Shown here: piece by piece, positions 7,875-63,560 of the stretch
Layout: every line of letters starts with the position of its first letter
Position numbering within the stretch: the first letter of the stretch is position 1
Translations under genes and position numbers: made by a program
Source: Paramecium tetraurelia
Taxonomy: Eukaryota
NCBI GenBank assembly: GCA_000165425.1
Contig: CT868017.1
Location: 62,001-126,000, forward strand
Length of the DNA: 64,000 bases
Direction: 5' to 3'
Notes under the pieces: model-generated
The model's input: the letters and a program-made list of their open reading frames with translations, nothing else
What the model was told of the DNA's origin: nothing
The model's database searches: none

Positions 7875-8535
7875 TCAGAATTAAAGTGTTTAAATCAAAT
7901 TAAAACTGTAGAAATAAAATATTCTTTCAAATACTGATTTATTATTACTAAATTCATCAAGACCAAATTAATTGAGCAATGCATGTGTAAGGCCAAGTTT
8001 CAATTGTTGGTAAACTCCCTCTCTCCTCTTAATACTTTTGTATTATTGGATTTCCCTTTAAAGTAAGCTAAACATTTTTTGCTCCCTTTTTATTAAGGAT
8101 ATCAATAGTTTCCTCAAAATCCTTCAAATCACACAAACCAAGTTGATTATTAGATAAATTTAGAGTGTATAAGTATTACACATTGATTGATTACAGCAGG
8201 TCTTTCAGCATCTAATCAGATAGCTAAGAATTCATAATTGTAATGTCAATTAAAGGTACATCTTTTAAATCATTTTCAGCATTATAATTCTCTATCACAC
8301 TATTATCAATATGAATGGCTTCAAATTCACCCATTGAAAAGTATATATCGTCGAAGTTGTTAAAAATTCCCTTATTATGAAAATAATCAGATTGTTCTTG
8401 TTCAGTCATTTCGAAATAATCATCTTCCATAAGCGCAGCTGAGATCTCACCTATTCTTATACCTATGCCGCTTAATTTTGATATCTCTCCAAATTCAGGA
8501 TGTTGAGTATTTTCAATTATAATTTTTTTTTCCAT
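7875..8535 (-). CDS. Hypothetical protein with leucine-rich-repeat-like motifs
   Basis: The ORF-track frame continues through TAG: LYTLNLSNNQLG and LTLKGNPI resemble an LRR and LRR cap. The 3' end is uncertain. Confidence 0.6.
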
Positions 8536-9460
8536 TTATTATAATAATTCATTATTGATGTGATTTGTTTTTAGATGAAAATTAATTATCATTCCAAAAA
8601 CCATATAAACTAAATCAAAAAAGTAAATAAATTGTCATTACTTAAAACAATACAATTTATCAAATGATTTTAATCAAACCAAAAAGATTTAATAACCATA
8701 ATAACTATAAGAGAAAGTTAGATTAAATAAAATTCTAAATATTTATAATAAAATCCATTAATAAAGAACTTAATTTAAATTATATTATAGACTACAAATT
8801 GTTGAATTTCTTTACGAACATATTTTTAATCAAATTCTATTAAATACTTAATTTTTCATATTCATTAATAAAGATTTAATTACTTAATTTTAGAATAATT
8901 AACAAGACACATAACTAATATTTATAAAATAGTTATATCATCCTTGTGAAATATACAAAAAACAAAACGTTATGATTTTTAATATATTCGATCTAAAATC
9001 TAAAATAAAAGAAGATCATTATGTTAGACCGAATTTAACATTCTTATCTTTAAAACTTAATATATTCAATCATTCTAATCCATTTTTATTTCATTTTCAT
9101 CTTGATTAATTCTTAGCTTAATATTCTATTCAATTTATTAATCGCACTGTAAAATTTATGCAATCAAAATAAGACTATTAATTAAATCTTTAATTAATGA
9201 TATTAAAGAATAAATTGATTTATTACTTCAGTTCTATTTATATATTGTCAATTCCAAATCAAATTCCTAGCTCCTCAAGTAATTATCTTGGCATTTGTCA
9301 GTAATTGGAATTTATAATTTAGATTTTAGAAATAGATTTGAATTTTGATTGATTCTTCAAATCGTTGTTGAGAAATCTGAGTTAAAACAATATATTATAT
9401 GAAAAAAAGGAAGGAATCCCCCTCCAATTTATGAATGAAGAAACTAATACAAAAAAAAAA

Positions 9461-10176
9461 TCAAAAATATTATTCTCTTATTTTCTTCAATCCTTCTTTT
9501 AAATTTCTCAGTGTTATAATTTGATTATCTTAAATGTTTTATAGATTTTATTAACTCTATTATAATCTTATAATATTATTACACTAACTCTTCTAAAGTT
9601 TCCAATTCTATATATCTTTCTAGTTTTGTGCTTATTTAGCAGTTTAACTTTTTCAAAAAATCTTTAAAATTGGTGATCCTTAGATTATTTATTCAAGTAA
9701 ACATAACAGTCTGCAGTTCTATAATAAACTAAGTGATTAGTAAAGCTATATATACCTTCTATCAACTCTTAATATTTTACACTAGTTTAATTGATAACCC
9801 AAAAGTGAAAATGGATTTCCTTAGAACTAGATGTCTCCTGTTTTGAACAATATTCCAGATAATAATTTTTTTTTGATTTTCTTATTGTTCCACAATATTT
9901 AAACACTTGGTCAATTTTATCTAAATTGTCTATAACCAAAACATTAACATTGCTTCGATCTTTTACCTCTGTTTCCTCGTCAATCGAAGTTGTCTATCAC
10001 TATTGGTAATATTAAATTACATTTGTTTCTTTTTCTGAATTATCAAATCCTCTCTATTAACCCGCAATTTCTTAATCTGATCCATAAAAAATCAAATTTT
10101 ATTGCCAGGACATTTTGGCTAATTCAATATACTCCTCAAGAGAGTCAGCATGTAAGGCTCCTAATCTTTAACGCAT
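9461..10176 (-). CDS. Hypothetical protein with a degenerate small-GTPase (Rab-like) fold
   Basis: Open code-6 frame with 3 inferred introns: MRQRLGALHADSLEEY...VNVLVIDN...IHFHFWVINQTSVKYQELIEVYYRTADCYVYL...KIYRIGN...TGA. Confidence 0.55.
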
Positions 10177-12331
10177 ATCTGAATTTGCAATTTTTAAATA
10201 ATAAATTATCCTAAAATATTTGGGTATTCAATTTCAAAAAATTTATATTCTATGCTAAATTTAAGTAACTTAATCTTCAATCTAGAAATCACATATTTCC
10301 TCTAAGAATTAAATCCCTAGATATATTCAATGCATATGTCAAAATTAAAGATCCTAATCTTTCGATTTAAAAATTTGTATCAAAAATGATGTGAGACTAA
10401 GATAATTGACTTTAAATTTAAATACAAACTGATCCATAAATTAATTTTTGATTAACTATTCCTTTTCACCATTTAATAAAACAGAATCTAAATTATATAA
10501 CTTAATCTTCTCTTTAATTTATTAATTTAGTTATTTATTATTTGATACCATCCAGATGCTTGTAGTTTAAGCCAAATAAAGATAGAAGAAAAATAATGAT
10601 GAGAGTTTTTAAATTTCCATAAACTATCTGAAAAACTTATCCGCTTTTAATATGTATTTTTCTTATTTAACTAAAGTGCTTACTTTAGATAGATAATGTA
10701 TTCAATATGTTAATGTCATTTTTTTAATATCAAATTATAAAGTATTACCCAAATATTACCTAGATATTTTATAGTAAATTAACATAGACCATTTCTAAAA
10801 TGCTCCAGTTAAAGAAATAAATTCCAATGACTAAAGTACGTATTATTAAATTAAATAATAATTAGGAATTATTTAGAATTCAGACAAGCTGTTGAACCTA
10901 ATAATTCAAGTGTAATCCTCTACCAATATTATTTTATTATCTATATAAAGTGAAATAAATTAATATGCTTTTATTATTTAGACAAAAAGATTTATTTAAA
11001 TGCCTTTATAAAATAAATAAAATGATTCATTAAAAGTCTTATGTCTTAGCTTTGTATTTATAGCATAAATTTACGTAATGCCCTAATTGATGTTTTAGAG
11101 TGAGACCAAAACATATTCAGAACGTAATTTCTATTTTTAAACCTAAGTAAATATTGGTATTTCATTATTTTGTGAAGCGTTATTACAGCTTGAGTCAGAA
11201 GCACTATATTAAAACAATTAACCTTTTATAGATGCTTATTACTTATAAAACCTAAAGATGAATTATATTCTAAAATGCCTATAAATGTCTTTCGTAATAA
11301 CCAGTTTATTGAGTATTCCAACAACCTAAAATTGAGACTCTTTAAAGTATTATGGTTCAGAAGATCATAGTATTTTGATCAATTTGATATTTTGAAATTT
11401 TTGCTCTAGAGAAACGAAATATGACATAATATTGAAATTTTTTTAAAAGAATCTAGAAAAGCCTATATTTTGAAATAAGACAAAATGAAGATATAGATTT
11501 AGATTAAAATGTGATTTCTTTATTGACTAGGTTTAGTGCTTAAATTGAATTAAGAAATAAGTCCTGCCTAATTTTAATCTAATTAAAAGTGTTTGTAAAT
11601 TTGAAGAAAAAAGAGAAAAATAACTGAATGAGGGCATACTTGTTATTTTTAAAGAGTATAGTTAGAAGAAGTCACTTTCGATATAATAAGATTCTATATA
11701 GAGTTTATTGAATCAAACTATGGGTTGTAATTGTAAAAATATTGAAAAATACATCATTTCAATTTGTTATCGAATTCAACGAAAATTCAAATACATACAG
11801 AAGACAATGTATTATTAATTTTCTAATCATAATACCATGTAATGTAAAATTATATTAAAAACAGTTATAAAAATGATGTTTGTTCCTTCATTGTTTTCAA
11901 TTATAAGTTGACTTATTGAACAGTTTATTCAGTCACTCCAAAGTTATTGTGTTATTTGGCTACAATAAACTCTTTCAGGAAATTGTAATTGATTCACAAT
12001 TGTTTTAAAAATGATGTATCTTTCTTATATTATGAATATTATTTAGAAGTTCGGTTGATTCAAAAAAGGAACCTGATATCGTTTTCAAAGTGCAATCAGA
12101 TTCATCATAAGTTTAAAATTAATGATAATTAAGGTATGGATTAAATTTGAGTTGAATTGAGGTAAAATGTAAAATTACTGAAAGCATTCGGCTCATCAAA
12201 TTAAGTCTGAATTATTATACTCTGTTTAAAGGAGTATTTGCTATTAATAATAATACATTAAATAGTGTAATTGAGTATATTAGATTGTTTTTTAAATCTT
12301 TTTTTACTAAAATATTAAATAATAAACATAC

Positions 12332-12655
12332 ATGGGATAAAGTTGTTGTAACAAACAAACAATAGAATAAAGTAATGAGCACATGACAGAATTGTGTTAA
12401 AATATGGATGGAGTCAAATTTTGTGAAAACCTTGATGATATTTTTAACTCAAAGGAATGTAACTCTAATCAAGCAAGAGTTCTAAGCTCTTAAATAATAT
12501 TTACATTTTAATAATAGTTGCCTCTTACATTATCATAGGAATGTAGTTATTATGAAAAAATGAACAGCATTTAAAAATACAACTTTGACGAAGAAAGCCC
12601 AACATTTAAGGCTTAAAAAAACGTACTATCAGAAAATGATATATATCGAGATTGA
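12332..12655 (+). CDS. Small hypothetical protein with N-terminal myristoylation/palmitoylation-type motif
   Basis: Intronless 107-codon code-6 ORF starting MGQSCCNKQ and ending in TGA. Confidence 0.65.
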
Positions 12656-13216
12656 TTGAGTTTATACTACTCTCTTCAAAAAATACATTGAATTCATTTA
12701 AAGAATTAAATAAATTATAGACATTATCCCTATATTATTATTAATTAAAATTAGTATTCATATCATTAAAAGTGGCTATACATCAATAATATAAAAAATG
12801 TTATCTAAAGGAAATCAATTAGTAAATGATGAATCTATCTTGAAAAATAAATAACAATATTATTTTGAAGAAGTAACCAAATATCTAATAATTTTAGAAT
12901 AATGATGGTTTATTTAGATTAATAATTATCGATATAACTAATTATTTTATCAATTGCTATTTCAGGTTTATTACAGTATAGTATCGATAATAATCTACAC
13001 AAATCAAAGGTATAAATGAATTTTGTTGAATACGTTAGGATATGTTATGCATAGAAATCTTAATAAAAATCAATTTTAATGAAGTTGGCTATGTAATTAC
13101 AAGTAATTTATTATTGGATATGAGTTTAAAATGCAAAGAAGCTATAATTCTAATCATAAATTAAAATAAATTGATAAAACTTCTTCATAATCTAAGCCAA
13201 ATTAAAAAATAAAATT

Positions 13217-14836
13217 TCATTTATGAAATAGATATTTCTTATAAATCATAACAACATCACTATTGGCCATGTCTTAATTAGTTCCTGATTCGACAAACAC
13301 TTTAACTTTTCCACTCTTCCCAAATGCACTATCAATCTTCCCTTGAATATTCCCTTATTTGATAACAATCAACTTTCCTATATAATTCGCTATATTTGTT
13401 TCTTTCTTGAATAAATCCTTAATAAGTAAGGTGTAATTGTCAATCACCTTTTCTACCTTTCCATTTTTAGTCTTCTTTCTGAAAATTCTTAAAAAATTCT
13501 ATTGAAATAATTATTAAGTTGTGTAAGAGTACAGAATATTTCCATAAAATGCAATTCTACATATATTTGCTTCTAAATCAGTATCCAATTTTGAAGCAAT
13601 AACTAAAGAATTCATAGATGCAATTAATGGTTTTTCCAATTGGAGTACACCAAACAAATTGTATTTTTCTTGAAGTTTTACATAATCTAAAAATGATAAT
13701 AATAAACATCATACCTTCATAATCCTCCAGGTATTCCCCTTCACTATTGATCTCCAATTACAAATTCTTGGGTCTTATGATCAATTTCAATTATCCCATT
13801 ACAGTCAAATGACCCGAAGTGATATGAAATTTATTTTAAGACTTTAATTATCCTTTATAATAACTAATCTTCTTGAAATCAATAACGATGTTTTCTAACA
13901 GTGATACAATCCCCGGTTAACATACAATCCCCCTCTCAATCTCTTTTGCATCTAGATTAGTGAATAAGGCAGCTATTCTATCTCCAGGTTCTCCAATCTA
14001 AACAGGTTTCTTGAACATTTATAGACTTTTGATCTTTTTATTCAAATTGAGCATAGGAAAATAGACCTCATCGTTTGGTTTCATTGATCCTTGTATGATC
14101 GTACCAGTAGTGACTGTTCCTTATCCCTTTATTTAGAAGCAATGATCAATCATAAACAACAGACCTTTATTCAATTAGGCTTATCGATTGGGGACAGTGA
14201 TATTTTGAAGTAAAATTCCTAATAGATCTTCTATTCCAAGTGCTTATATGGCTGAGACAGGTACTAATGGGACCTAATTTCCAAACTTTGTCTTGGATAG
14301 GACATTAGCAATAATTTTCTTTTGTTTATTAATTACTTCCTCAGTTGCTAGATCTATTTTGTTCAAGACCACAATTAATTTATCAGCCAAAATCTCACCA
14401 ATGACTAAACATTCAGCAGTTTAAGTTTAAATGCCTTTAGTCACATCAATCACTAAAAACATCATATCAATAATTTAAGCTCCTCCTATGATTGTCTTGA
14501 TTAATGATGCATGTCCGGGACAATCGACTAAAGTAAATTGAAAATATCTTAAATGATTTATTGTGGATACTTTCCCTATTCATTCGGATTACGAGTGTAA
14601 AATGCACTGAACCCCAGATCCAAAGTAATTCCCCTCTCCTAACTCTAAGGGTTCTTGTCTAATGAGGCTGTTGATGTTATCTAATTGGTAGATGGATTAA
14701 TTACCTTGGATAATGTCTTAACCAGTGATGTCTTGCCAGAATCAATATGTCCTAAGACACCAACATTAATGTTAATGGTATTTAATTTATTGACTATTTC
14801 TATTTCTTGTTATGAGATGAATAAACTTTATTCCAT
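13217..14836 (-). CDS. EEFSEC: Selenocysteine-specific elongation factor (eEFSec/SelB)
   Basis: INVGVLGHIDSGKTSL, LDKNPQSQERGITLDLGFS, FTLVDCPGHASLIKTIIGGAQIID, GIQTQTAECL, VLNKID, DHCF and C-terminal FGKSGKVKV motifs. Several introns. Confidence 0.95.
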
Positions 14837-29100: not shown

Positions 29101-32100
29101 AAAGGAGGGAATTGAAGAATTAGATAAAATATTAACACTCAATAATAATAGAATCTAAATAAATGGATTACACGATTTAATCAATATGTTAAAACAAAGA
29201 TTGAGTGATAACAATAAATAATTAGTTAGACCTATTGTACAAATTGTGGGTAGAGTTGCCGAAGCTTGTGGAAAAGATTTTAAATCCTCAGGCAAGTAAT
29301 TAATTTAACCACTAATTTCTATTCTTAGTGATAAATAAGTATTAGTTAGGTAGGATGTTGTTGCTAGTTTAGATAAATTTTGTATAGCCATTGGAATTGA
29401 TTAAGTAGTTTTGTAAATGCCTCCTTATTTATAGATGGAGTCTATTGAGTTGAAATAAGAAGTTTTGTTATTCATTATGAAATACATTGAAGCTTTACTT
29501 AAAATAGATTACAAACCATTCATATTACCATTAATTAATTGTCTTTGTGATAGAGTAAAAGAAGTTAGATAGGCAGCCGAATAAGTTTGTGAAAGAATGG
29601 TTGAAGATGTGGGCACAGATCCATTTTTAAATTAAATGAAAGATCTAAAGCCTGCAGTTGTTTAGTAAGTGAGGCTATTCTTCGCTAAATTTGGGATGGG
29701 CGAGAATTAGAAGACACTTCAAAAAGAACAGGGAAAACACCAAAAGGAAAACAATAATAATTACAATAAAGTTAGTAATAAGACATCAGAAATATGAAGA
29801 GAAATTTAACTACAAAAGATTTACAAAATGATTTAAATACTTCTCAAGAACCAAAATAAAGAAATGAAAGAACTCCAAATAAATCATTACATCAAAAATC
29901 TCTCAAAACTTTACCATAAGATAATACTCCTTTAAGACAATAAAAAGAAAAGGCAGTCTTCTAAGACAACAACAGTTTAATTGCAAAAAGTTCAAGCATT
30001 AAGGAAATGAAATAACTAAGAATGCAATCAGACTCAGTATAATCATGGGCTAATGATTGCTTTCCAATTAGCACATTTAGTGATCTCTATGTTTGTTTAA
30101 GAGAGGATCTATACAATAATCTGATGTCATACAATTATAAGGACGTTATGAAAGGCTTATAATAATTGATGACTGTTTGGAATGATCCTGAATAAAAATC
30201 AGATATAATTGAATTAAGTGATTTACTTCTCAAGTTTGTGCTTGTTAAAATATATGGTTGTTCTGCCAATCAACTACTGATGAATGCCTTGATTAGCTTC
30301 TTAGATGCCTTCTTTTAAACAATCTCAAAAGCAAGGTATATCTTAACTGAAGTAGAATAAATCGTGACAATCTCCATTATAAGAGAATTGATCTACGCTG
30401 GAGTTGATGTCCATCTAGAATTAATACAAAATTTACAATATGTATTCTCAGTTGTGATAATGTTGGAAAAACTTCTGCAATTATTAAAAATTAATCCTTA
30501 AGTTATGCATCCATTTTTAATTGATTAAAGGGATAGAATTAATACTCAATTATGCAATTTAATCATCTAAGGTTAATTGGTCAGATACTTTCCTTAGGAT
30601 CTATTCCAAGAATATTCATAATATCTCACTAAAGAATTACAAAATGAACTCGTAGCTTTACATGGATATCATTCTATTAGAAGATACAATTAATAATAGT
30701 AGCCAGATTAACAATAATAATAACCATCATAATTATAATAATAATAACAAGTGGTTTAATCAACCTAGTAATAATAATAATAATAATAATATTAAACTGG
30801 GAAATAACCAATTATATAAGGTATTGTACAATTATAATCGGCAAAAGATCCAAGATCACAGTACTTCTTGTAAATTTTAGATTCTCTTCTTAGTTAATAA
30901 ACCTCTCAAAATATAGAATCTTTAATGTAAATTAGCGATTTGCTTACCCAAAACATTTAATAAAATTAATAATTATTTGTTGATAATGCTGAGGCAATTT
31001 GCAAATGTTTTCAGACTTTATTATAAAATACTTTTAACTAAAGAGAAACATACCCTGCTTAGTTTATATAGTTCTTCTTATAAGCATTGAATAAATTGTA
31101 TTAGCTAAAGGCTTATGTAAATTAATTACCATATGAACTATTATGTGGATTTACTGAAGAGATTATGCTTAGGTTGTTATTGGAAGACGAATTGAAGAAT
31201 CAGTAAGAAAATGGAGATGCTATTAAGCAACTTAATTCTACTATTCTTCGTATCTTAGAAAACACTAGTTAAGATATCATGTTTTCTATATTGTTTGATG
31301 TATTGACCAAGCATAGGCGTAGAAGCAATGCATAAAAAATGATAGATTTGCTAGTTAAATGCATAGCTAGATTAACTGTCAAAATCGAATAAAATAGTAA
31401 TATTAAGATTGAATTACTCCTTCTTAAATTTCATAATTATTTAAATGAGTTCTCGCTGAGTCCGAATTTCGCTCTTGATGAAAAAGGAGTTAAGACCATA
31501 AAAGTTGTACTTTAATAGTTGGTTAAGATTAAAGGAGAAAGAATTTGGGAAAATTATCATTTAGTTAGCAGAAGTACCTAATAGGATCAATATTTAAATA
31601 AATGGATTCAAGCATATTTAGGTAATCCTACTTTGTAGAATGCATAACAAGAAAATAATCTTCCCGATCAAGAACTATAATAAATAATTGACATGTTAAG
31701 AACACCTTCATTATTAGATGGAGGCATTCAAAAAATGGTAGAAAAAATTAAGAGAAGTCCAAGTATCATATTTTAAATAACGTAGATATCTAATGGCAAA
31801 AGTATGTCCAAGATTAATAAATCTAATTACTTATATAGTAGTAATTGACAAATGGATAAATATCCAATTAGGGAGGTTACATGAGTACTTAACCTTCATT
31901 ATAATATTCTTAGTTATAACAATTACCCCTATCATAATCATAATTATAGTAATCTTAACTCTCTGTTAAACCTTAGTTATAATAATAATAACAATAATAA
32001 TAATAATAACAACAATAATAATAGTAATAATAATAATAATAATAGTAATAATAATAATAATAATAAATTTTACAGCAATTACCTACTTACTCAAGAACAA

Positions 32101-32363
32101 CACGAGCAGCTGATCCTTAATAATAATTTAATGATTCTTTTGGTGTTTAATCATTCAATCAATACATGTCTGTTAATTAATATCAAATGAATTAAAATCA
32201 AATCGGATAATAATAATAATAATAATAAAATGTAAAAACTCCAGAGTACTTAATGTAAAAATTAACAGATATGAAAAATAAAGTTCAAACTCTAGTAGGT
32301 CCAAATAATGTATAATAAGCATAAAATCCTAGATAATTTCAAAATAATCGTATGCCTTAATGA
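26183..32363 (+). CDS. CKAP5: XMAP215/Dis1/ch-TOG microtubule polymerase
   Basis: TOG HEAT-repeat signatures PLAQRLKSKAWKLRQSAFEE, DAYDLVDAVDI...KWNEKQALL, LPRADIS...DVQWNKRKEG, DWKEAN. Poly-Q C-terminus. About 2000 aa. Confidence 0.93.
31980..32066 (+). repeat. Poly-glutamine tract (29 TAA/CAA/TAG codons) in XMAP215
   Basis: Uninterrupted in-frame Gln codons. A second Q-rich tract lies at about 30690-30790. Confidence 0.9.
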
Positions 32364-33189
32364 TTATTAATTATATTTCATAATTTATTATTCTAAAATT
32401 TGATTTGAATAATTTAATCTTATACTATATAATTTAAAAAAATTAATCTATTCATAGTCCCTGTACAGCTTATTATAGTATTTGATCTTCAGTTCTAACA
32501 GTTGGCTAAGTTTAATTATAGAACTCTTTACTAATTAACATAAGTAATTAAATTTATGAATTTTTTGTTAGTCATAGAATAATTACAAAATTAGTCATTA
32601 AAATTTAGATTTTTTTAAAATTATAAATAAAAATTTGATAAATCGGAATTTTATCTTTGATATTAACAGCTTTAAACAACCTAACTTTAAATATTAATAT
32701 TTCTACTGATATATGCATAGGTATTTAAGATATTATAATTTGTTTAACTATTTGAGATTTCTTATAAAATTAATAATTTTAATAAATCAAATTTAAGCCA
32801 AAAAAATAATATCCAAGAAAGAATCAACCATGATATAACTAAAAATAAGAACATGAGAAGGAATTAATCTTATTTCAATAGCAAAATTTGGATTCCTCTA
32901 AATAGGATAAATTAGGGATAATTCACTTTAAATTCAATAATTCTTTTGAAAAATATACAATTGTTGAAATAATAAATATATAAATATTTTAATATATCTT
33001 TAACTTTTTTGTAAATATTAACTAAGTCTACAAATATTTTTTATCTTATTTAATAGTTTAAGATTCTCCACATTCCAAAACTGTAAACTTGATTTCAGAT
33101 GTTTATTCCTAAAGTAAGGGATTTACACAAAAATAAAAATAGTTATAAATTATCATTATAAATATAAAAATAAAAATAACAGCTTAATT

Positions 33190-34026
33190 ATGACTTAGAA
33201 TCTCTAGGACTATGCTTAATAATTAGTGAATATCTCAATATCAGATGATGAGGGGATAATTGATTACTCACCAATGAAATAATCTAATTTTTAAAATGTT
33301 ATTACGTAAGGTTAACCATCTGGAAAAAAATCATTAGCAGCTTCAGTCAAACCGAAGTCTACTGCTTCAAAATCAACAAAAAGTATGATAACCAAGTATG
33401 ATTTAAGAATCAAGCGGAATTAAGTCAACTAAGGATAGGGCTAAGGAAATGAAAGAGCAATTTGAGGAATAGGCGAAATAACTAAAATGGTATTAGGAGG
33501 AGTATTAACGATTGAAGGAGCAAAAAAAATATTTAAAAGAAGAGAAGACTTAATAAGTATTTGTTTGATAATTGAATAATAGCTTCTAATGATTAATACA
33601 TATAAAACAAAATTAGAGTAGAGTATAGGAAATGAGAAGAAACTTCATTAATAATTGAATGAATAGATGAATGTTACAAGATAAGCATTAAAATAGTCAA
33701 GTGATGCTCAAATAACTTTGGAGTAGAACAAATAAAATTACTTACAATAATAATAAATGGAAGACTTGGTCAGATAGAGGTAAAAGGAGGAATTAGAATA
33801 TTAATATCAAAAGAAGCTTGATCAATCAGTCAAATAAGCAATTGCTGATGCAGAAGGTAAATACGAATTGAGAATTCAATAAATGAACAGGGAACTAGAT
33901 GTTTTGAGATAAGAAAATATTGAACTTCACAAAAAACTAATGTAAAATGAAACAAACAAAAAACATATTTATGTTTAAAGCGAATTAGATTAGTTGAAAA
34001 CTAAGTACTTAACTACAAAGGGATGA
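33190..34026 (+). CDS. Hypothetical coiled-coil protein
   Basis: MTQNLQDYAQQ..., one inferred 25-nt intron, E/K/Q heptad-rich body, TGA at 34024. Confidence 0.7.
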
Positions 34027-52536: not shown

Positions 52537-54052
52537 ATGGAAATTAAGTATAAATGGATATTTTCTCTGATCCTTAGCACAAATGTCCTTATAAATTTAG
52601 ACCATGGTATCATTCCTGCAGGTAAATGGATAAAAATATGATTTTCCTAGCCACTTAATAGATTGAGGCATCCCTGGATTTGAGTGCTGAGGAATTGGGA
52701 TACTTGGGGTCACTGGTTTATGCAGGTATTTCGATGGTTGGATTATTTGGGGGGAAGCTATTCATACATTTCAATGCTAAGTTGATAGTCTCAATTAGTT
52801 ACTTAGGAATGCTGGGTTCTCTGTTGATGTTTCCTCAACATTACAAGAGCAGTTGGCTGTTTTATTTGAGTAGATTTTTAACAGGCTGTGCATAAGTAAA
52901 AATCGATGATATATTGAATAGGCACCTATGATGATTTATTTCCCAGTATGGGTGGACAACTTTGGAGGAGAATCAAAGACAATTTGGTTAACAATTTTGT
53001 AGGGTGTGATTCCTTTGGGAATATTTGTTGGATACGTGTTGTCAAGTGTGATTTCGAACATATGGACCTGGCAATTAGCCTTTTATGCTTAAGTTGTATT
53101 GTTAATTCCATGTGCAATATGTTTTATTTTGTTTGTGAGAACAAAGGATTTCGAGATAAAAAGAGCTAGAAGGAGCAAAATAGATAAAAAGTCAGTGAAC
53201 CCTGATGATGTAGGTGCTTCGATGCTGAGTGTGAGTTCTCATAAATCATACTGGCAAATGATGGGAGAATTGTACTCTATAAAATTATGGTTGTGTTGTA
53301 CAATAGTGATCAGCATACTATATTTCATAGTAACAGGTATACAATTTTGGATGACTGATTATATGATAATAGAGATGCATCAAAATCAGAAAACAGTTAA
53401 TGTAGTTTTTGCAGTAGTCTCAATTACAGCCCCAGTCTTTGGTTGTATAACAGGAGGATTGATTGCTTAGAAATTGGGAGGTTATGAGAGAACTAAATCA
53501 CTTTACATTTGTGTACTCTACTGTTTTATTTGCTGTTTGAGTGCTGCTCCAGTGCCATTTACAGATACATTTTGGTTCGGAGCCTTATGTGTTTGGTTCC
53601 TATTGTTTTTTGGTGGAGCAATAGTTCCCCCATTGATGGGAATCATGCTCTCTTCAGTTCCTAAACACTTGAAGGCCTTTGCAAATTCAAACACAACAAT
53701 GTTTTAGAATTTATTTGGCTTTTTACCAGCACCTTCTATTTATGGATTTCTCTTGGAAAGATATAATGCAAAAGTGGCCATATTCACCTTGATGTATTAC
53801 TCAGTTTTTGGATTACTGTTTATGTTTATTGCTGTTTATTTCAAGAAATAAGAAATTAAAAATAGAAAAAAAAATCCCACTTCAGTTATCAATAGAACAG
53901 AGTCAGTACTTGAGGATGAAGAGAACTTCAATATCACAGATAGAGTACTTCAATATGGTGATATGCCGTTGAGTGTTTCATTGGCTCAACATATTGACGA
54001 TCAAATACCAAATTATGAATACGAAGGCACTAAAGAATAATAATAAGAATGA
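52537..54052 (+). CDS. MFS transporter (Spinster-like)
   Basis: NVLINLDHGIIPA, LGYLGSLVYAG, SRFLTG, IYFPVWVDNFG, GIQFWMTDY, about 12 hydrophobic segments. Two introns. Confidence 0.88.
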
Positions 54053-57986: not shown

Positions 57987-60050
57987 TCATTTAAATACAA
58001 TCTAAAAGGCATTCTATACTATTTCATAAAACTTTTGAGCATCTTAATCAATTGTGTCTAATCTAAATCCAATATTAGCTTAATTTCCAAAAGGATGTTT
58101 GTCAATCATTTGCTTCCTCTTTAGAATAAATTGTAGGATGGCTGCAACTTTGTCATTCAAGTAAATAGGTGCAATAAACACAGGTAATATCGAGGATATG
58201 TCTGTGTTTTCATCAAAGTGATCTTGTCTTGTAATTTGAGTAAAGATTTGGGACTTACCTTTTAAATAGATTTGATAAGCACAACCAGCCTATAATTGAT
58301 AAGTTCTACCTGAAATCCAAAATTGATTATTCTCTATAAATAAGAGTTTAGTTTATGCAATCTAGAATATTTGCATAGCAGATTCTTATAACGCTGAACA
58401 AAAATGTTCCCTATCTTTACATTAAATCAATCGATTAAAACATCTATAAAACAGATCTCTGTAATTCAATTCCTTTACCAAAGCCTCAAAATCCAAGATA
58501 CTTTAAACCACTGACTTACTTAACATATTTATCAATAACCCATAATATTGAGAATCTAAAAATAAATTCTCTTAAATATTTTGTATCTAAATTTATAGAC
58601 ACAGTATACTTCTAATATTCCACATGGTTTTGAGCTATTTCCCATAATTGGAAGCAAGAGAAAGTTCTTTCCAAAAACCTCATTGTTTTCTGTTATGTAG
58701 AGCAATTCCTACTTTTTTGATGGGCTTCGTATACCATAATCTTCAAACACCAATTAGCTAAAAATTCCATCTGTTAGTAAAGCAACATGTTAAACTCCAT
58801 TACAATCATAAGTTTGAGCTCTGCAGGTCATTCCATCTATAATCCATAAATGAACAATCTCAGTTCCAAAGATAGGTCGAAATGCTTTGCTTACATGAAT
58901 TTAAAAATCTTGAATATTCTTGTAACTGATCATAGTTATAAATTCATTCATAATTTAGTTAATTCTTTCGGAGAAATCTCTTGCACTTATAAATTGAGCT
59001 AATTGAATTTAAAATATAAGATACATGCAACCAGATTAATGAGATCCTTTTTTTGTTGTATCGAATCAAGTGTGACAACCTAATTTGTAAAGACTTCTGG
59101 TCCATGTTCTATTAGATCTAATAAGAAATCACAATCATCGTTATCAAGATCATTCAATCGAAATTCTAGATTACTTGGTAATGAATTTGGATTGAAGGCA
59201 TAATTTATTATTTACTAATTTTCTGTTACAATGTCTTTCACACCAACTTTCTTGGTTTTCAAGGAATCTAATTTTTTGGTCAATCTATTATTTTATTAAA
59301 GTAGTTTTGAATTTAAATCTTTGAGTCTTTCATTTTCTTTCTCTTTTTTCACCAAATCTCTTTTGAGTTACTCGTTGTCTCTGATCAATTCCGACAATGT
59401 GTTCCTGAGTTCTTCAGAATGAGACTATTTAGTGTATTTGAATTACATATAGATTTTTCTCCAAGATCATCTCTATTCTCTTCTCTAAGAATTTGATTTT
59501 CTTATACTACTCTTCCACCACTTTTTTCTATTGCAATAAATCCCGACATAGTTTATGTTAATCCTGCTGAGAGAGAGTTAACTGTTTTAGATATCCCTCA
59601 TTGTCCATTTTATAATGATTCTAAATTTGCTTACTTACTAATATACTTATTGGTCTTTTAACTTTTGTATTGTCTATTTCTACATCACACTCTCCATGGT
59701 CACATGGCCGAGTTGTTTGTTCTTTTAATTTAATTCGATCTCAGTTTTGGAGATGCTCTTGAGTGTTTTGGCAATCTCTTGCAAACTATTTAGAATTCTA
59801 GTCTACTCGATTGAAGTGCTGGGCTTCAATGATTCTGCTAACTGCTCGATGTAATAGAGTCTATTCTCAAGAGCCTTGTACATAAGTGAATATAGTTAAC
59901 ATTATCATAACCGGATAGCGATTCCATTTTTCGAGATTGATTGAAAACTGTAGTTGTTCTTTCATCCGGTAATGTTTTAAGTGGTTGATCGGAAAACAGC
60001 CTTGGACTTTGAACCTATTTCATTCGAAAAGCACGATTAGTACTGCTCAT
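57987..60050 (-). CDS. Coiled-coil plus GAF-domain protein
   Basis: N-terminal coiled coil, then GAF-like segments (IFGTEIVHLWIID; FDENTDISSILPVFIAPIYLNDKVAAILQF). An alternative in-frame start lies at 60023. Confidence 0.65.
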
Positions 60051-60060
60051 TTTAATTAAA

Positions 60061-60796
60061 ATGTTTTTATTTTATTTTTTCCATCTCATCTCCTCTCAAA
60101 TCCCTGAAGGTTTTGTTCGCTTGAAAGACATAGACTCCACTATATTGCAGGAAATGCGATATGCACAATATCATAATTTCGTAGGTAGACCCATAAAGGG
60201 GTATTTACTTGAAGAGTGTGTCTTGACGATTGAGGCTGCACAACAATTAGCAAAAAATCAAAAGGAAGCTATTAAACAGGGTTATTTGATAAAGGTTTGG
60301 GATTGCTATCGTCCTTAAAAGGCTGTTGATGATTTCTATTAATGGAGTTTGAATGATAATATTACAATGTAGGAAGAGTTTTATCCAGGCGAACAAAAGG
60401 AACTTCTGTTTGATCACGGGTACATCGCCAAGAAATCTGGACACAGTAGGGGATCGACTGTTGATCTGACTTTAGTTCCGTATCATCCTGATAAACAATA
60501 AGAATATAAACCTGGTGATTAACTAATTCCATGTTTCCAAGATAATAGGTAATGTGAATAATAATCGTATTATTAGGTTTAAAGACAATACCATCGATAT
60601 GGGGACGGGGTTCGATTGCTTTGATGAGAAAGCCCATACTTATTGTGGAGATTTGACAATCGAATAGAGAAATAATAGAGATCAACTATTAACATTGATG
60701 TAGAATTTTTCAAATTATATTGACGAATGGTGGCACTTCACATTAATAAACGAACCATACAAAAATATATATTTTGATTTCGACATTAAAGATTGA
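60061..60796 (+). CDS. ddpX: D-alanyl-D-alanine dipeptidase (VanX/DdpX, peptidase M15D) with putative signal peptide
   Basis: [47 protein letters not shown] (SxHxxGxxxD), [14 protein letters not shown]. One 28-nt GT-AG intron near 60550-60577. Confidence 0.95.
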
Positions 60797-60817
60797 CGAT
60801 TATTTGTTTAAATATTT

Positions 60818-61884
60818 TCAATTTTCTTTCTTATGATCCAATTTATTCTCTCTATTATCGTAAATATTCTTATATCGACCAGAAGAGAAAATGCCCAATC
60901 CCACTTTAACCATAAATATTGTCCAATAAATATGCATTCCAAGCAGCAACACCATTAGACCGATTTAATTGTAATAGGCATGCTTTGTTTGTTCCCTAAG
61001 ATATTTAAAAATCTTACCAATACGGCAAGAATTACGGATGGTTGACCATACAATCATAAATCTTGATTGGGAATACATAAACCCTTGTGTACAACCAAGA
61101 TACCTATATTGATGAGAATCCAAGATACACTAAGATCTTAGTCTTACCAAGATCCGCATATGCTCTACCTAAGGCCAAGAATATGTCACTGATATCGTGG
61201 AGTACCAGAACAACGATCCCAATATTCTCGCAGTTGTACATTGTTGAAAAGTAAAGTAAACTAACAGCAAGAGAGTGGTGTAATAAGTATTCCCAATACT
61301 TCAGTTCTATTTTTGTACCGTAGATCATTAGTAACAACAAGGCATGAACATGACTTGATGCCTAGACCATATAATAAATTGGAACCCAAGAATTCTAATA
61401 AATTCTAACATAATATTTGTACTTCAGGAATGTTAGGAAAATCATATAAAGTCTCCTTAAAATTAGATCCTCCAAATTCTCTGGGGAACCATTTTTCATC
61501 TCGAAAAGCAAAGAATGCAAAGAGAGTTGCACTAGAGTAGTATACTGTGTCATAAATCCATTTCACTATTTTTTGTACTCTAATCTATCGATCAGCTCCT
61601 ATATATTTTGAATCTAGTTATCTTTCCACAAAACCTGTCACAGCCCTCTTATTTATTTCTTTTGTAATCTATTAATAAGTAGCACGAACTAGTACATGTA
61701 TCAAAATCAATCCAACAAAAAGCCATTTAAGATCTCTCCAATCAAATCTTCTGAAGTTCTTCTCTTACAGGAATTGCTGGAACTATATGATATCATAACT
61801 ATAAAGGGAAATAACAACTAAATATGCTAATTGATAAACAAATACTTAAGACGAGAAAGAAAACAAATTTGAAGATGGTTTCAT
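60818..61884 (-). CDS. LAG1: Ceramide synthase (LAG1/TLC family)
   Basis: Lag1p motif KYWEYLLHHSLAVSLLYFST...IGIVVLVLHDISDIFL and multiple TM segments. The start may instead be upstream at 61935 (see findings). Confidence 0.9.
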
Positions 61885-62098
61885 AGTGTGTGAATTTGAC
61901 TAACTTTTTCAAAGTGATCTTTTGTTACCCTTCATTTATTAAATGGTGAGTATACGAGGACCTTTAAAGCATTATTTGTATTTTTATCAATAAATCGAGA
62001 TAAAAAATAATTCTTAAGAATACTCAATTTATTCCATTCAGAATTTCCTGAAATAAAAATATTAAATTAACTCTGATTTAGTTTTGGAATATTTATAT

Positions 62099-63560
62099 AT
62101 GAAATTTATTTTAATATTAGTCTTCACATTCGGCCTGAATGCCTTAATGCTGAGAAGTGTGAATGAAAAATTAACAGAGCATGTAATACAGGTAATTGAA
62201 CCGTATTATTTAAGTAAATACGTGAATAAGTGAAGAATCCATTGAGCCAAAATTACCACTCAGCATATGATAGATTGGCTTATTATGTTGATACCTTTGG
62301 TCCTAGATTATGGGGATCAGAGAATATGGCAGACGCAGTTGACGCACTCTATAAGGATATTCAGACAATGGGATTTGACAGAACTTGGAAAGAAAATCTA
62401 GGAGAGATTACATCATGGAGGAGAGGAGAAGAAAGTGTTACATTGTTTGATCCGAGAGAAATACCTCAGAAATTGAATATGATTGGATTGGGATGGACTC
62501 CTGCTGGAAGTGTAAAGGCTGAAGTGGAAGTGGTTCATTCATTTGAGGAATTGAAATCGAAGGATGTGAAAGGAAAGATTGTATGTTACAATTTTGAATG
62601 GAATGGATATGATTCTGGTGTGGCATTCAGATATGCAGGACCTGTAGAGGCAGAAAAGGCAGGAGCTATTGGTACAATGATCAGAAGTGTGGCAAGTGTA
62701 TCAATTGCATCACCACATACAGTATATATTTTGTTAGAATTTCAAGGGAATGACGGATTATGACAATATCAAATATCCAGCAGTTGCAATTACTGTTGAG
62801 GATGCAGATATGCTAGACAGGATGAGATAAAGAGGCTAAACGGTAGTAGTGGAGATCAAAACAGAAGGATAGTAATATAAAACAACAAGCGATAATGTCA
62901 TTGCAGAAATCAAAGGATCTAAATATCCAGACGAGATCTTGTTAATGGGTGGTCATTGGGATTCATGGGATGTTGGATCATAAACAGGAGCCAATGATGA
63001 TGGTGGTGGTGTTATTGTCTGTTTAGAGACATTAAGAGTCTTAAATTCATTGGGAATTAGACCAAAGAGAACATTAAGGTTCATTGCTTGGAGTGGTGAA
63101 GAGATGGGCTAGTACAACAATGGAGCAGTTCATTATGCTCGTAATCATGGCAAAGAAAATCATATAATTGCTTTCGAATCTGATTTAGGATCAACCAAAC
63201 CATATGGATTTGGTATAACAGCTGGATAGCAATTTACGTAATTTTTATGCTTACAAAATTCTTAGATAATTGGTAACATATTTGGCTTAAGAATATTTAA
63301 CTGGTATTGGAGCAGAACGCATCTTTCCAAATGATGGAGAAGCTGTAGATAGTGGAATTTTAGCTGAATTCACTGGAACTCCTATGTTGAATAATCGAAT
63401 TGCTGACAACAAAAATCATGATTACTATTTCACTTATCATCACACTGCCGGTGATTCTATGTGGATGATGAATCCAGAAGATATGGATGATAATGTAGTT
63501 GCTATTGCCAGTATCATGTATTTGATTGCTGATTATGATGGACCCATTCCAAAAGATTGA
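62099..63560 (+). CDS. CPQ: Carboxypeptidase Q / plasma glutamate carboxypeptidase (M28 + PA domain), secreted or lysosomal
   Basis: Signal peptide MKFILILVFTFGLNA. YDRLAYYVDTFGPRLWGS, GGHWDSWDVG, GANDDGGG, AWSGEEMG, AFESD, YFTYHHTAGD. Three introns. Confidence 0.93.

What the first reader, a model, noticed from the sequence alone, without database searches (positions are those of the whole stretch)
60061..60796. Bacterial-type D-Ala-D-Ala dipeptidase (VanX/DdpX) domesticated in a ciliate
Seen: a full M15D enzyme with the Zn-ligand/catalytic motifs intact (YRP Arg, [14 protein letters not shown]). It uses ciliate TAA/TAG Gln codons, carries a typical 28-nt GT-AG intron and has a short hydrophobic N-terminus ([13 protein letters not shown]). 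These features argue for a genuine nuclear gene rather than contamination. Established: this family is essentially bacterial and cleaves D-Ala-D-Ala (VanX in vancomycin resistance, DdpX in peptidoglycan turnover), and ciliates make no peptidoglycan. Inference: the gene was acquired horizontally and retargeted to the secretory or food-vacuole system, letting a bacterivore digest D,D-peptides from prey cell walls. It could also act on endosymbiont or pathogen wall precursors.
Basis: partly seen in the sequence, partly recalled or inferred. Interest (0 to 1): 0.85.

Follow-up and report, generated by a model that had tools for sequence, protein, structure and literature searches.

The report
Ciliate gene for bacterial-type D-Ala-D-Ala dipeptidase
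A Paramecium-like ciliate carries a transcribed, spliced nuclear gene for a zinc enzyme of bacterial origin that should cut the cell-wall dipeptide D-Ala-D-Ala, but relatives of this gene are already annotated in other ciliates, so it is a solid yet modest case of old gene transfer.

Summary
Window 60061-60796 (+) encodes a 235-aa M15D (VanX-like) zinc dipeptidase. It has two exons, a 28-nt GT..AG intron (60549-60576) and seven in-frame TAA/TAG glutamine codons. The Arg/His/Asp/Glu/His catalytic set is intact. Stranded poly-A RNA-seq covers the gene, and a transcriptome contig lacks exactly the 28 nt. Flanking genes are eukaryotic and composition matches the host, so contamination is excluded.

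Bacterial origin is well supported. The family has thousands of bacterial clusters, and the ciliate proteins sit inside an exported bacterial subfamily that shares a hydrophobic leader, four cysteines and a roughly 27-residue insert.

"Retargeting" is not needed, because the bacterial relatives already carry leaders. The gene is not new to ciliates: P. sonneborni (80% identical), Tetrahymena thermophila and Pseudocohnilembus have annotated homologues. It reaches neither the VanX nor the DdpX equivalog cut-off.

One ancestral transfer is compatible with the data (AU p = 0.41) but not shown, and no donor is resolved. A food-vacuole digestive role is inference only. I found no paper on this enzyme in ciliates. 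Verdict: a real gene, a new member of a known kind, of moderate interest.

The parts
60061..60548 (+). Exon 1 (codons 1-162 plus the first two bases of codon 163); 5 in-frame TAA/TAG = Gln
   Evidence: Translation. Pfam PF01427 61 bits, profile 4-123. RNA coverage on the gene strand.
60061..60099 (+). Short hydrophobic N-terminal leader (13 residues) ahead of the conserved IPEGF start of the catalytic domain; a candidate signal peptide
   Evidence: Alignment with homologues, which all carry leaders here. Best 9-residue Kyte-Doolittle mean is 2.09. No SignalP was available, so this is inferred.
60307..60315 (+). YRP motif; R84 corresponds to VanX Arg71 (VanX numbering recalled)
   Evidence: Alignment to 1R44 through the P. 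sonneborni homologue. The column is R in the window protein.
60436..60465 (+). [10 protein letters not shown] motif with zinc ligands H128 and D135
60549..60576 (+). 28-nt spliceosomal intron, GT..AG, phase 2, GC 0.21
   Evidence: Transcriptome contig X19 lacks 28 nt here. Junction loose ends occur in 3 reads of X24, and depth dips in the intron bin. Intron sequence printed.
60577..60796 (+). Exon 2 (last base of codon 163, codons 164-235, TGA stop at 60794-60796); 2 in-frame TAG = Gln
   Evidence: Translation. Pfam PF01427 53.4 bits, profile 129-197. RNA coverage.
60725..60736 (+). EWWH motif: catalytic E213 and zinc ligand H216
60478..60585 (+). Insert of about 27 residues relative to VanX (between the D135 strand and the DMGTGFDC segment). 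It contains C158 and is typical of the exported subfamily. It spans the intron.
   Evidence: VanX aligns in two stretches that skip it. An insert of 20 or more residues is present in 303 of the 306 four-cysteine sequences. pLDDT is low (59-77) in the model of the homologue.

Best explanation
This is a functional nuclear gene of a Paramecium-like ciliate. It encodes a 235-aa zinc D-Ala-D-Ala dipeptidase of MEROPS/Pfam family M15D (VanX fold).

It descends from an exported bacterial subfamily, distinct from cytosolic VanX and DdpX, and was taken up by horizontal transfer long ago. Since then it has acquired ciliate codon usage, TAA/TAG glutamine codons and a 28-nt intron. Related genes exist in Tetrahymena and Pseudocohnilembus.

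Mechanism. Shown: the Zn ligands (H128, D135, H216), the catalytic base (E213) and the transition-state arginine (R84) are all in place. Inferred: the enzyme hydrolyses D-Ala-D-Ala. Also inferred: the short hydrophobic leader and the four conserved cysteines send it into the secretory/lysosomal route. There it would act in the food vacuole or outside the cell on D-Ala-D-Ala released from lysed bacterial prey, as one digestive or salvage step.
For: Gene reality:
- Code-6 frame with 7 TAA/TAG codons.
- The spliced form is seen in RNA, with stranded poly-A coverage.
- Neighbours are eukaryotic: a TLC-domain gene with its own 22-nt intron, an MFS transporter and an M28 peptidase.
- CDS GC is 0.345 and GC3 0.332. 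Five neighbouring ORFs have GC 0.27-0.38 and GC3 0.23-0.31.

Family:
- PF01427 matches on both exons.
- The P. sonneborni homologue (79.6% identical over 235/235 residues) matches VanX 1R44 at E 3.5e-38 by sequence.
- Its model (pLDDT 81.9) matches VanX at TM 0.90 normalised to the target, Foldseek E 1.2e-19.
- The catalytic set RHDEH is intact in the window protein; it is intact in 345 of 367 aligned sequences.

Bacterial origin:
- 3850 representative clusters at E<=1e-3.
- At least 581 bacterial species' genomes encode the subfamily motifs.
- The four nearest ESM-Atlas clusters shown are 95-100% Bacteria.
- Only 3 of the best 120 hits carry eukaryote names.
- With rooting on 4 rows chosen as VanX-like because they match in two stretches, the ciliate rows lie inside the subfamily.

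Age: a long stem to the Paramecium pair (0.96 changes per site), ameliorated composition, and an intron.

Export:
- All 14 aligned subfamily members, bacterial ones included, have a hydrophobic N-terminal extension.
- Four cysteines are invariant in that alignment, and present in 306 of 367 sequences.
- VanX has none of the three that fall in its aligned stretches.
Against: - No enzymatic, localisation or phenotype data exist here.
- The leader has only 12-13 residues and no charged n-region. That is short for a signal peptide, and no predictor was run.
- My crude leader criterion does not separate four-cysteine sequences (287 of 306) from zero-cysteine ones (29 of 35). So cysteines and export are not shown to go together.
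- RNA reads on the gene strand begin only at about 60064, 3 nt after the ATG. The X19 contig starts at 60074. The 5' end, and hence use of the ATG at 60061, is therefore supported mainly by conservation with homologues.
- Free D-Ala-D-Ala is a small cytoplasmic pool in prey, so the nutritional gain is unclear.
- The careful tree does not recover the ciliates as one clade (Pseudocohnilembus sits apart) and its backbone is unresolved.
- Whether the unnamed nearest relatives (P0011, P0012, P0005 and others) are bacterial or eukaryotic could not be determined.
Confidence: 0.6

Rival explanations
1. Bacterial contamination or a mis-assembled bacterial fragment, not a ciliate gene.
For: The family is overwhelmingly bacterial.
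Against: There are seven in-frame TAA/TAG codons. A 28-nt intron is removed in RNA, and coverage comes from poly-A libraries. The gene is embedded between eukaryotic genes only 8 nt and about 21 nt away. Its GC of 0.345 is host-like. The stretch is held by 19 runs from 8 of the 9 listed studies at half or more of the sampled words.
Confidence: 0.01
2. The enzyme is not a strict D-Ala-D-Ala dipeptidase. The roughly 27-residue insert opens the pocket. As an exported enzyme it would trim D-Ala from peptidoglycan stem pentapeptides or lipid II (DD-carboxypeptidase, VanXY-like), or cut other D-amino-acid dipeptides. It would then help lyse or kill prey or control endosymbionts, rather than salvage a dipeptide.
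For: An exported enzyme meets cell-wall peptides more readily than a cytoplasmic dipeptide (inference). The insert lies next to the active-site strand and is poorly modelled, with pLDDT 59-77. VanXY and VanY enzymes share the fold (ranks 2-12). The protein fails both dipeptidase equivalog cut-offs.
Against: Similarity to VanX is far stronger than to VanXY or VanY (TM 0.78 against about 0.35 normalised to the query, and 0.90 against 0.41-0.43 to the target; 32% against 14% identity). The residues conserved with VanX include the whole set around the zinc.
Confidence: 0.2
3. The protein is cytosolic, and the hydrophobic N-terminus is a remnant rather than a working signal peptide. It would degrade D-Ala-D-Ala that reaches the cytosol from digested bacteria, as housekeeping or detoxification of D-peptides.
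For: The leader has only 12-13 residues, shorter than in Tetrahymena (about 20) and Pseudocohnilembus (about 24). RNA coverage starts at or after the ATG.
Against: The leader is kept, at the same length and hydrophobic character, in P. sonneborni. The four cysteines invariant in the 14-sequence subfamily alignment are retained, which fits disulfides in an oxidising compartment (inference).
Confidence: 0.17
4. Paramecium, Tetrahymena and Pseudocohnilembus acquired the gene in separate transfers from different bacteria, rather than once in an oligohymenophorean ancestor.
For: The three lineages are only 53-54% identical to the window protein, no closer than bacterial proteins are (54.9% for Amycolatopsis). 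In the careful tree Pseudocohnilembus is separate from the Paramecium + Tetrahymena group. No further Tetrahymena or Paramecium species appear among the best 120 hits.
Against: Both quick trees place all four ciliate rows in one 19-row group that contains no named bacterium (SH-aLRT 91). Constraining the four rows to one clade costs only 4.1 lnL, AU p = 0.408. Paramecium + Tetrahymena plus two unnamed rows group at 81/91.
Confidence: 0.3

Closest known systems
Annotated ciliate homologues: P. sonneborni 'D-alanyl-D-alanine dipeptidase' (P0003), Tetrahymena thermophila SB210 'D-alanyl-D-alanine dipeptidase (macronuclear)' (P0041), Pseudocohnilembus persalinus (P0052)
   Same: They share the subfamily architecture: leader, four cysteines, insert and the RHDEH catalytic set. 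P0003 has the same length (235 aa) and is 79.6% identical without gaps.
   Different: Tetrahymena and Pseudocohnilembus are only 53-54% identical and have longer leaders and C-terminal tails. Orthology by descent is compatible with the data but not shown. Their gene structures were not available.
Exported bacterial 'M15 family metallopeptidase' subfamily (for example Amycolatopsis P0014, Dactylosporangium L001, Coxiellaceae and Legionellales MAGs P0059 and P0114)
   Same: 50-57% identity over the whole domain. N-terminal hydrophobic leader, the DCYRP and GTGFDC cysteines, and the insert relative to VanX.
   Different: These are bacterial genes with no intron, the standard code and GC up to 0.74. 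As far as I know no member has been characterised (recalled, not searched).
VanX of Enterococcus faecium (PDB 1R44), the vancomycin-resistance D-Ala-D-Ala dipeptidase
   Same: Fold (TM 0.90 to the target), zinc ligands, catalytic Glu and Arg. Sequence E 3.5e-38 for the homologue.
   Different: VanX has 202 aa and, in the alignment, no leader, no insert and none of the three cysteines that fall in its aligned stretches. The ciliate gene scores 178 bits against the 320-bit VanX equivalog cut-off. It has no vanH/vanA partners; its neighbours are eukaryotic genes.
E. coli DdpX (NCBIfam NF007557 / PRK10178)
   Same: Same Pfam family and the same predicted chemistry.
   Different: 93 bits against a 176-bit cut-off. 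DdpX is a leaderless cytoplasmic enzyme of 188-193 aa (recalled).
Salmonella PcgL
   Same: It is called a D-Ala-D-Ala dipeptidase in PMC7933661 (one passage read). I recall, without having checked here, that it is periplasmic and therefore also an exported M15D enzyme.
   Different: It is bacterial and PhoP-regulated.
Other peptidoglycan-related genes of bacterial origin in eukaryotes
   Same: A bacterial wall-active enzyme fixed in a eukaryotic nucleus. [quoted passage not shown]
   Different: These are different enzyme families, or in Cyanophora a role tied to a peptidoglycan-walled plastid, which ciliates lack.

Membership tests
Pfam PF01427 Peptidase_M15 (MEROPS M15D, D-Ala-D-Ala dipeptidases) | Profile match above the gathering score over the whole domain | tested here: met
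   Exon 1 scores 61 bits (profile 4-123) and exon 2 scores 53.4 bits (profile 129-197 of 199), against a cut-off of 27.
Pfam PF01427 / M15D | Zinc ligands His-Asp-His, catalytic Glu and transition-state Arg | tested here: met
   R84, H128, D135, E213 and H216 are present in the spliced window protein. The equivalence to VanX residues comes from the alignment; the VanX residue numbers are recalled.
Pfam PF01427 / M15D | VanX-type fold | tested here: met
   This was tested on the 80%-identical homologue P0003, not on the window protein itself. The model has pLDDT 81.9. The best PDB match is 1R44 VanX, E 1.2e-19, TM 0.78 to the query and 0.90 to the target.
Pfam PF01427 / M15D | Hydrolysis of D-Ala-D-Ala | not testable with these tools
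   Needs an enzyme assay.
VanX proper (NCBIfam NF033115, equivalog) | Score at or above the 320-bit curated cut-off | tested here: not met
   117 bits and 61.4 bits for the two exons; 178 bits for P0003; 152 bits for Tetrahymena P0041.
VanX proper | Genomic association with vanH/vanA-type resistance genes | tested here: not met
   Neighbours are a TLC-domain gene, an unnamed coiled-coil-like ORF, an M28 peptidase and an MFS transporter.
DdpX (NCBIfam NF007557, equivalog) | Score at or above the 176-bit curated cut-off | tested here: not met
   50.7 and 42.9 bits for the two exons; 93.3 bits for P0003.
Exported M15D subfamily (defined here, not a curated family) | Four conserved cysteines plus an insert of 20 or more residues after the Asp ligand | tested here: met
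   The window protein has C53, C82, C158 and C177 and a 27-residue insert. 303 of 367 sequences share both features.
Exported M15D subfamily | Cleavable N-terminal signal peptide | tested here: inconclusive
   The 13-residue hydrophobic leader has a best 9-residue Kyte-Doolittle mean of 2.09. A possible cleavage site follows ..LISS (my reading by the -3/-1 rule). No predictor or experiment was available.
Horizontally acquired gene in a eukaryote | Nested within a bacterial radiation, with patchy eukaryote distribution and host-like gene features | tested here: met
   Nesting: (rooting on 4 rows chosen as VanX-like). Patchiness: where respectively 3, 2 and 1 of each 120 best hits are eukaryote-labelled. 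Host features. The donor clade is not resolved.

The most novel reading that the evidence does not exclude
An exported bacterial D,D-peptidase was captured once, early in oligohymenophorean ciliates. It has since been kept as a lumenal food-vacuole or secreted effector that works on bacterial wall peptides: D-Ala-D-Ala, and through its subfamily-specific insert perhaps stem pentapeptides or lipid II. That would give bacterivorous ciliates a dedicated D-amino-acid peptide step in prey digestion, or a way to restrain intracellular bacteria such as Holospora. The unnamed nearest relatives would then mark further unrecognised protist carriers.
Probability: 0.2. Interest if true: 0.6.

Novelty: new member of a known kind. 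Interest (0 to 1): 0.4.

Why it matters
Ciliates are major grazers of bacteria, yet little is known about how they handle the D-amino-acid peptides of prey walls. This is a conserved, expressed, probably exported D,D-dipeptidase of bacterial origin. It is a concrete, testable candidate for that step, in organisms where RNAi (Paramecium) and knock-outs (Tetrahymena) are routine. It is also a clean teaching case of an old bacteria-to-eukaryote transfer, with recoded glutamine codons, a gained intron and ameliorated composition. The gene family is already annotated in ciliate genomes, so the finding adds a member and a hypothesis, not a new kind of system.

Tried and rejected
1. The whole genome of the window is not held. 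I could therefore not look for paralogues or companion enzymes (D-amino-acid oxidase, racemase, lysozymes, amidases). tblastn found only one copy within the window.

Their origin stays unknown.

3. The metagenome scan returned 80 loci. I inspected the 25 best. None has in-frame stops, GC ranges from 0.36 to 0.75, and none is closer than 53%. So no environmental ciliate copies were found, and no DNA for the unnamed relatives (best tblastn identities 46-61%).

4. A third protein search, with the unnamed sister P0011, gave one more EukProt-only record (P0374, a transcriptome ORF without a species name). That ORF could be prey or contaminant RNA. Otherwise the hits were unnamed or bacterial.

5. 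I tried a link between cysteines and leaders as evidence of export. The crude criterion did not discriminate (287 of 306 against 29 of 35), so I dropped it as evidence.

6. I looked for Salmonella PcgL or E. coli DdpX as named reference sequences through the control genomes of the genome search. The controls that matched were Caulobacter, Synechococcus and Bacteroides, so no PcgL comparison was made.

7. Literature searches found no paper on this enzyme in ciliates:
- 'D-alanyl-D-alanine dipeptidase' + ciliate: 1 paper, listing only, a rumen review.
- VanX + Tetrahymena: 0 papers.
- HGT + Paramecium + peptidoglycan + dipeptidase: 1 paper; the dipeptidase there is ACE-type.
- 'D-Ala-D-Ala dipeptidase' + eukaryotes + HGT: 2 hits, 1 listed, on S. 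aureus.
- Peptidase_M15 + Paramecium: 0 papers.
- VanX + eukaryot + gene transfer + protist: 2 papers, on a glaucophyte and on a cyanobacterial symbiont.
- One search was set too loosely (min_terms 1) and gave nothing useful.
-, and the passages read, had nothing on this enzyme.
- Subscription-journal papers and supplements were not searched.

8. Earlier findings of this scan: none by place, words or sequence.

9. Donor inference was rejected as unsupported. The best-scoring named bacteria are Actinomycetota. Legionellales and Coxiellaceae MAGs are also near. The backbone is a polytomy, so no donor can be named.
Full report
**1. What is in the sequence**

Window 60061-60796 (+) reads, with the ciliate code (table 6), as a two-exon gene.
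- Exon 1 is 60061-60548.
- The intron is 60549-60576. It has 28 nt, GTAATG...ATTAG ends, phase 2 and GC 0.21.
- Exon 2 is 60577-60793, followed by TGA at 60794-60796.
- There are five TAA/TAG codons in exon 1 and two in exon 2.
- Spliced by coordinates in a script, the CDS has 708 nt and gives 235 residues with no internal stop.

Each exon matches Pfam PF01427 (Peptidase_M15, D-Ala-D-Ala dipeptidase) on its own, and the two matches adjoin on the profile. Exon 1 scores 61 bits (E 1.8e-16, profile 4-123 of 199). Exon 2 scores 53.4 bits (E 3.7e-14, profile 129-197). The cut-off is 27 bits. This confirms both the family and the intron model.

**2. It is a real, expressed ciliate gene**

One sequencing-run search found the 1301-base stretch in 20 runs, 19 of them with at least half of the sampled words. 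I laid three stranded oligo-dT RNA-seq runs (raw reads) and one transcriptome assembly on 59800-61100.

The three raw-read runs cover 60064-60811 in one orientation only, at mean depths of about 5 to 50. The regions on both sides are read in the opposite orientation, which fits flanking genes on the minus strand. Depth drops in the bin that holds the intron. Three reads of X24 continue behind 60550 with TTAAAGAC, which is the start of exon 2.

The reads are only 58 nt long, so no split alignments were reported. At 60546, 0 of the 9-10 covering reads per run showed the gap. The raw reads alone therefore do not measure splicing efficiency.

The transcriptome contig (X19) is 1777 nt long and has 0 mismatches over 977 aligned bases. 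It lacks exactly 28 nt at 60546, which is the same deletion as 60549-60576 given the AG|GT repeat. It also lacks 22 nt at 60995, inside the neighbouring gene. Unspliced DNA could not give that.

The neighbours are eukaryotic.
- A TLC-domain (TRAM/LAG1/CLN8) gene lies on the minus strand immediately downstream.
- An MFS/OATP-like transporter lies at 52910-54052.
- An M28 peptidase lies at about 62200-63560.

The CDS has GC 0.345 and GC3 0.332. Five neighbouring ORFs have GC 0.27-0.38 and GC3 0.23-0.31. Contamination is excluded.

**3. What the protein is**

The nearest database protein is from Paramecium sonneborni (P0003). It has 235 aa and is 78% identical over exon 1 and 79.6% identical over all 235 residues without a gap. 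The window therefore comes from a Paramecium-like ciliate.

No identical protein of 89-284 aa is in the 5.8-billion-sequence collection. The gene may be unannotated in this genome, or modelled differently.

P0003 matches only one solved structure by sequence: VanX of Enterococcus (1R44), at E 3.5e-38. The match comes in two stretches that skip a segment of about 27 residues.

An AlphaFold model of P0003, built with a 14-sequence alignment, has mean pLDDT 81.9 and pTM 0.82. Its best PDB match is 1R44 (Foldseek E 1.2e-19, TM 0.78 to the query and 0.90 to the target, 32% identity). The next matches are far weaker: VanXYc, VanXYg, LdcB and VanY, at TM about 0.35.

I aligned all 366 relatives held at that point together with the window protein. 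The window protein carries R84, H128, D135, E213 and H216. The full set is present in 345 of the 367 sequences. The chemistry of a zinc D,D-dipeptidase is therefore intact. Activity itself is inferred.

**4. It is neither VanX nor DdpX, but a third, exported subfamily**

Against NCBIfam, the P. sonneborni homologue scores 178 bits on the VanX equivalog (cut-off 320) and 93 bits on the DdpX equivalog (cut-off 176). The window's exons score 117 + 61 bits and 51 + 43 bits respectively.

I aligned three ciliate proteins with eleven of the closest other proteins. All fourteen share:
- a hydrophobic N-terminal extension before the conserved (I/L)P.GF start;
- four invariant cysteines (C53, C82, C158, C177);
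- the insert after the Asp ligand.

VanX has other residues at the three cysteine positions that fall in its aligned stretches.

Across the 367 sequences, 306 have all four cysteines, and 303 of those also have an insert of 20 or more residues.

The named bacterial members include Streptomyces, Amycolatopsis, Dactylosporangium and Micromonospora. They also include Propylenella, Deferribacteraceae and Fundidesulfovibrio, and Gammaproteobacteria MAGs that include Coxiellaceae and Legionellales. Their leaders look like ordinary bacterial signal peptides.

So an exported location looks ancestral to the subfamily.

Whether the very short Paramecium leader still works as an ER signal peptide is open. 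It has 12-13 residues, no basic n-region, a best 9-residue hydropathy mean of 2.09, and a possible cleavage site after ..LISS. No predictor was available.

My attempt to use the co-occurrence of cysteines and leaders as evidence failed. The crude leader criterion is met by 287 of 306 four-cysteine sequences, but also by 29 of 35 zero-cysteine sequences.

**5. Origin**

The family is overwhelmingly bacterial.
- An exhaustive HMMER search of 1.84 billion representatives found 3850 clusters at E<=1e-3 and 466 at E<=1e-30.
- A scan of one genome per prokaryote species found at least 581 loci that encode the subfamily motifs. The 80 loci kept are about 50% identical and mostly Actinomycetota.
- The four nearest ESM-Atlas clusters shown are 95-100% Bacteria.

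Eukaryote-labelled records are few.
- 3 of the best 120 hits for exon 1: P. sonneborni, Tetrahymena thermophila SB210 and Pseudocohnilembus persalinus.
- 2 of the best 120 for the Tetrahymena protein.
- One unnamed EukProt transcriptome ORF among the best 120 for the unnamed relative P0011.

A nuclear vanX is also listed for the glaucophyte Cyanophora, which has a peptidoglycan-walled plastid (one passage read in PMC6704402).

Trees:
- A quick ML tree of 90 rows and a quick tree of a 61-row subset both put the four ciliate rows into one 19-row group. Its other members are all unnamed sequences (SH-aLRT 91, below the star threshold).
- For the 61-row set I dropped 29 rows: redundant actinobacterial rows, long-branch representatives, and 6 of the 10 two-stretch rows, because the 10 did not form one outgroup in the 90-row tree. 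The C-terminally truncated P0004 was never included.
- The careful tree of the 61 rows (LG+C20+F+G4; its bootstrap had not fully settled) gives the Paramecium pair at 100/100. That pair joins the unnamed P0011 and P0012 at 98/78, and then Tetrahymena at 81/91.
- In that tree Pseudocohnilembus sits elsewhere, in an unresolved 41-row polytomy that also holds Actinomycetota, Alphaproteobacteria and Deferribacterota.
- Forcing the four ciliates into one clade costs 4.1 lnL units, AU p = 0.408.

A single old acquisition is therefore compatible with the data but not demonstrated, and no donor can be named.

The long stem to the Paramecium pair (0.96 changes per site), the host-like composition, the recoded glutamine codons and the intron all argue against a recent transfer.

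I could not determine what the unnamed nearest relatives are.
- The 25 best of the 80 metagenome loci look bacterial and are no closer than 53%.
- None of the fetched loci encodes them.

**6. How it most likely works**

Shown:
- an intact VanX-fold zinc site;
- transcription and splicing;
- conservation of the leader and cysteines between two Paramecium species.

Inferred:
- the protein enters the secretory/lysosomal pathway;
- it hydrolyses D-Ala-D-Ala freed from lysed bacteria in the food vacuole, or in the medium.

I give about 0.97 to a real functional M15D gene, about 0.85 to bacterial origin by HGT, and about 0.45 to the exported digestive role. Overall confidence in the combined statement is 0.6.

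The main functional rivals are two. One is a broader D,D-peptidase acting on wall stem peptides, because the subfamily insert lies beside the active site and is poorly modelled. The other is a cytosolic enzyme whose leader is vestigial.

One caveat for all readings: reads on the gene strand begin only at about 60064 and the X19 contig at 60074. The divergent upstream minus-strand ORF has its ATG at 60050-60052, only 8 nt from this ATG. The use of ATG 60061 therefore rests on conservation of the N-terminal 30 residues with homologues, not on mapped 5' ends.

**7. Novelty and score**

The gene family is already annotated in ciliate genomes. Transfer of bacterial wall-degrading genes into ciliates has been described for other enzymes (passages of PMC13198582).

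My searches of the open-access library found no paper that discusses an M15D/VanX-like enzyme in ciliates. Subscription journals and supplements were not covered.

The finding is real and correctly observed, but it is a new member of a known kind, not the surprise its first score implied. Interest: 0.4.

Noticed in passing
window 60029-60063: A minus-strand ORF (MSSTNRAF...) has its ATG at 60050-60052, only 8 nt from the dipeptidase ATG at 60061. RNA reads of opposite orientation abut at about 60063/60064. The two divergent genes therefore share almost no intergenic DNA.
   Followed up: partly
window 60796-61908 (-): A convergent TLC-domain (TRAM/LAG1/CLN8, Pfam E 1.8e-25) gene follows. Its minus-strand RNA coverage begins at about 60812, and a frame ending at 60818 puts its stop only about 21 nt from the dipeptidase stop. 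A 22-nt intron at about 60995 is removed in the transcriptome contig, which bridges both genes.
   Followed up: partly
window 62200-63560 (+): A second peptidase gene lies 1.4 kb downstream: M28 family (Pfam E 5e-23), spread over at least three frames, so probably with small introns. No link to the dipeptidase was tested.
   Followed up: no
window 52910-54052 (+): MFS / OATP-like transporter ORF (Pfam MFS_1 E 3.7e-23, OATP E 8.9e-16).
   Followed up: no
window 60061-60796: No identical protein of 89-284 aa exists in the 5.8-billion-sequence collection; the best hit is P. sonneborni at 78%. The gene may be missing from, or mis-modelled in, this genome's annotation. No other Paramecium species appeared among the best 120 hits.
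   Followed up: partly
proteins P0011, P0012, P0005, P0273, P0010, P0276, P0007 (unnamed records): Unnamed full-length relatives group with the ciliate proteins in the trees. P0005 and P0010 have leaders without basic residues, and one EukProt transcriptome ORF (P0374) is 61% identical to P0011. These may be further protist carriers or unsampled bacteria.
   Followed up: partly
window 8001-14000 and 32001-34000: Stretches of notably low GC (0.22-0.25) against a window mean of 0.286.
   Followed up: no
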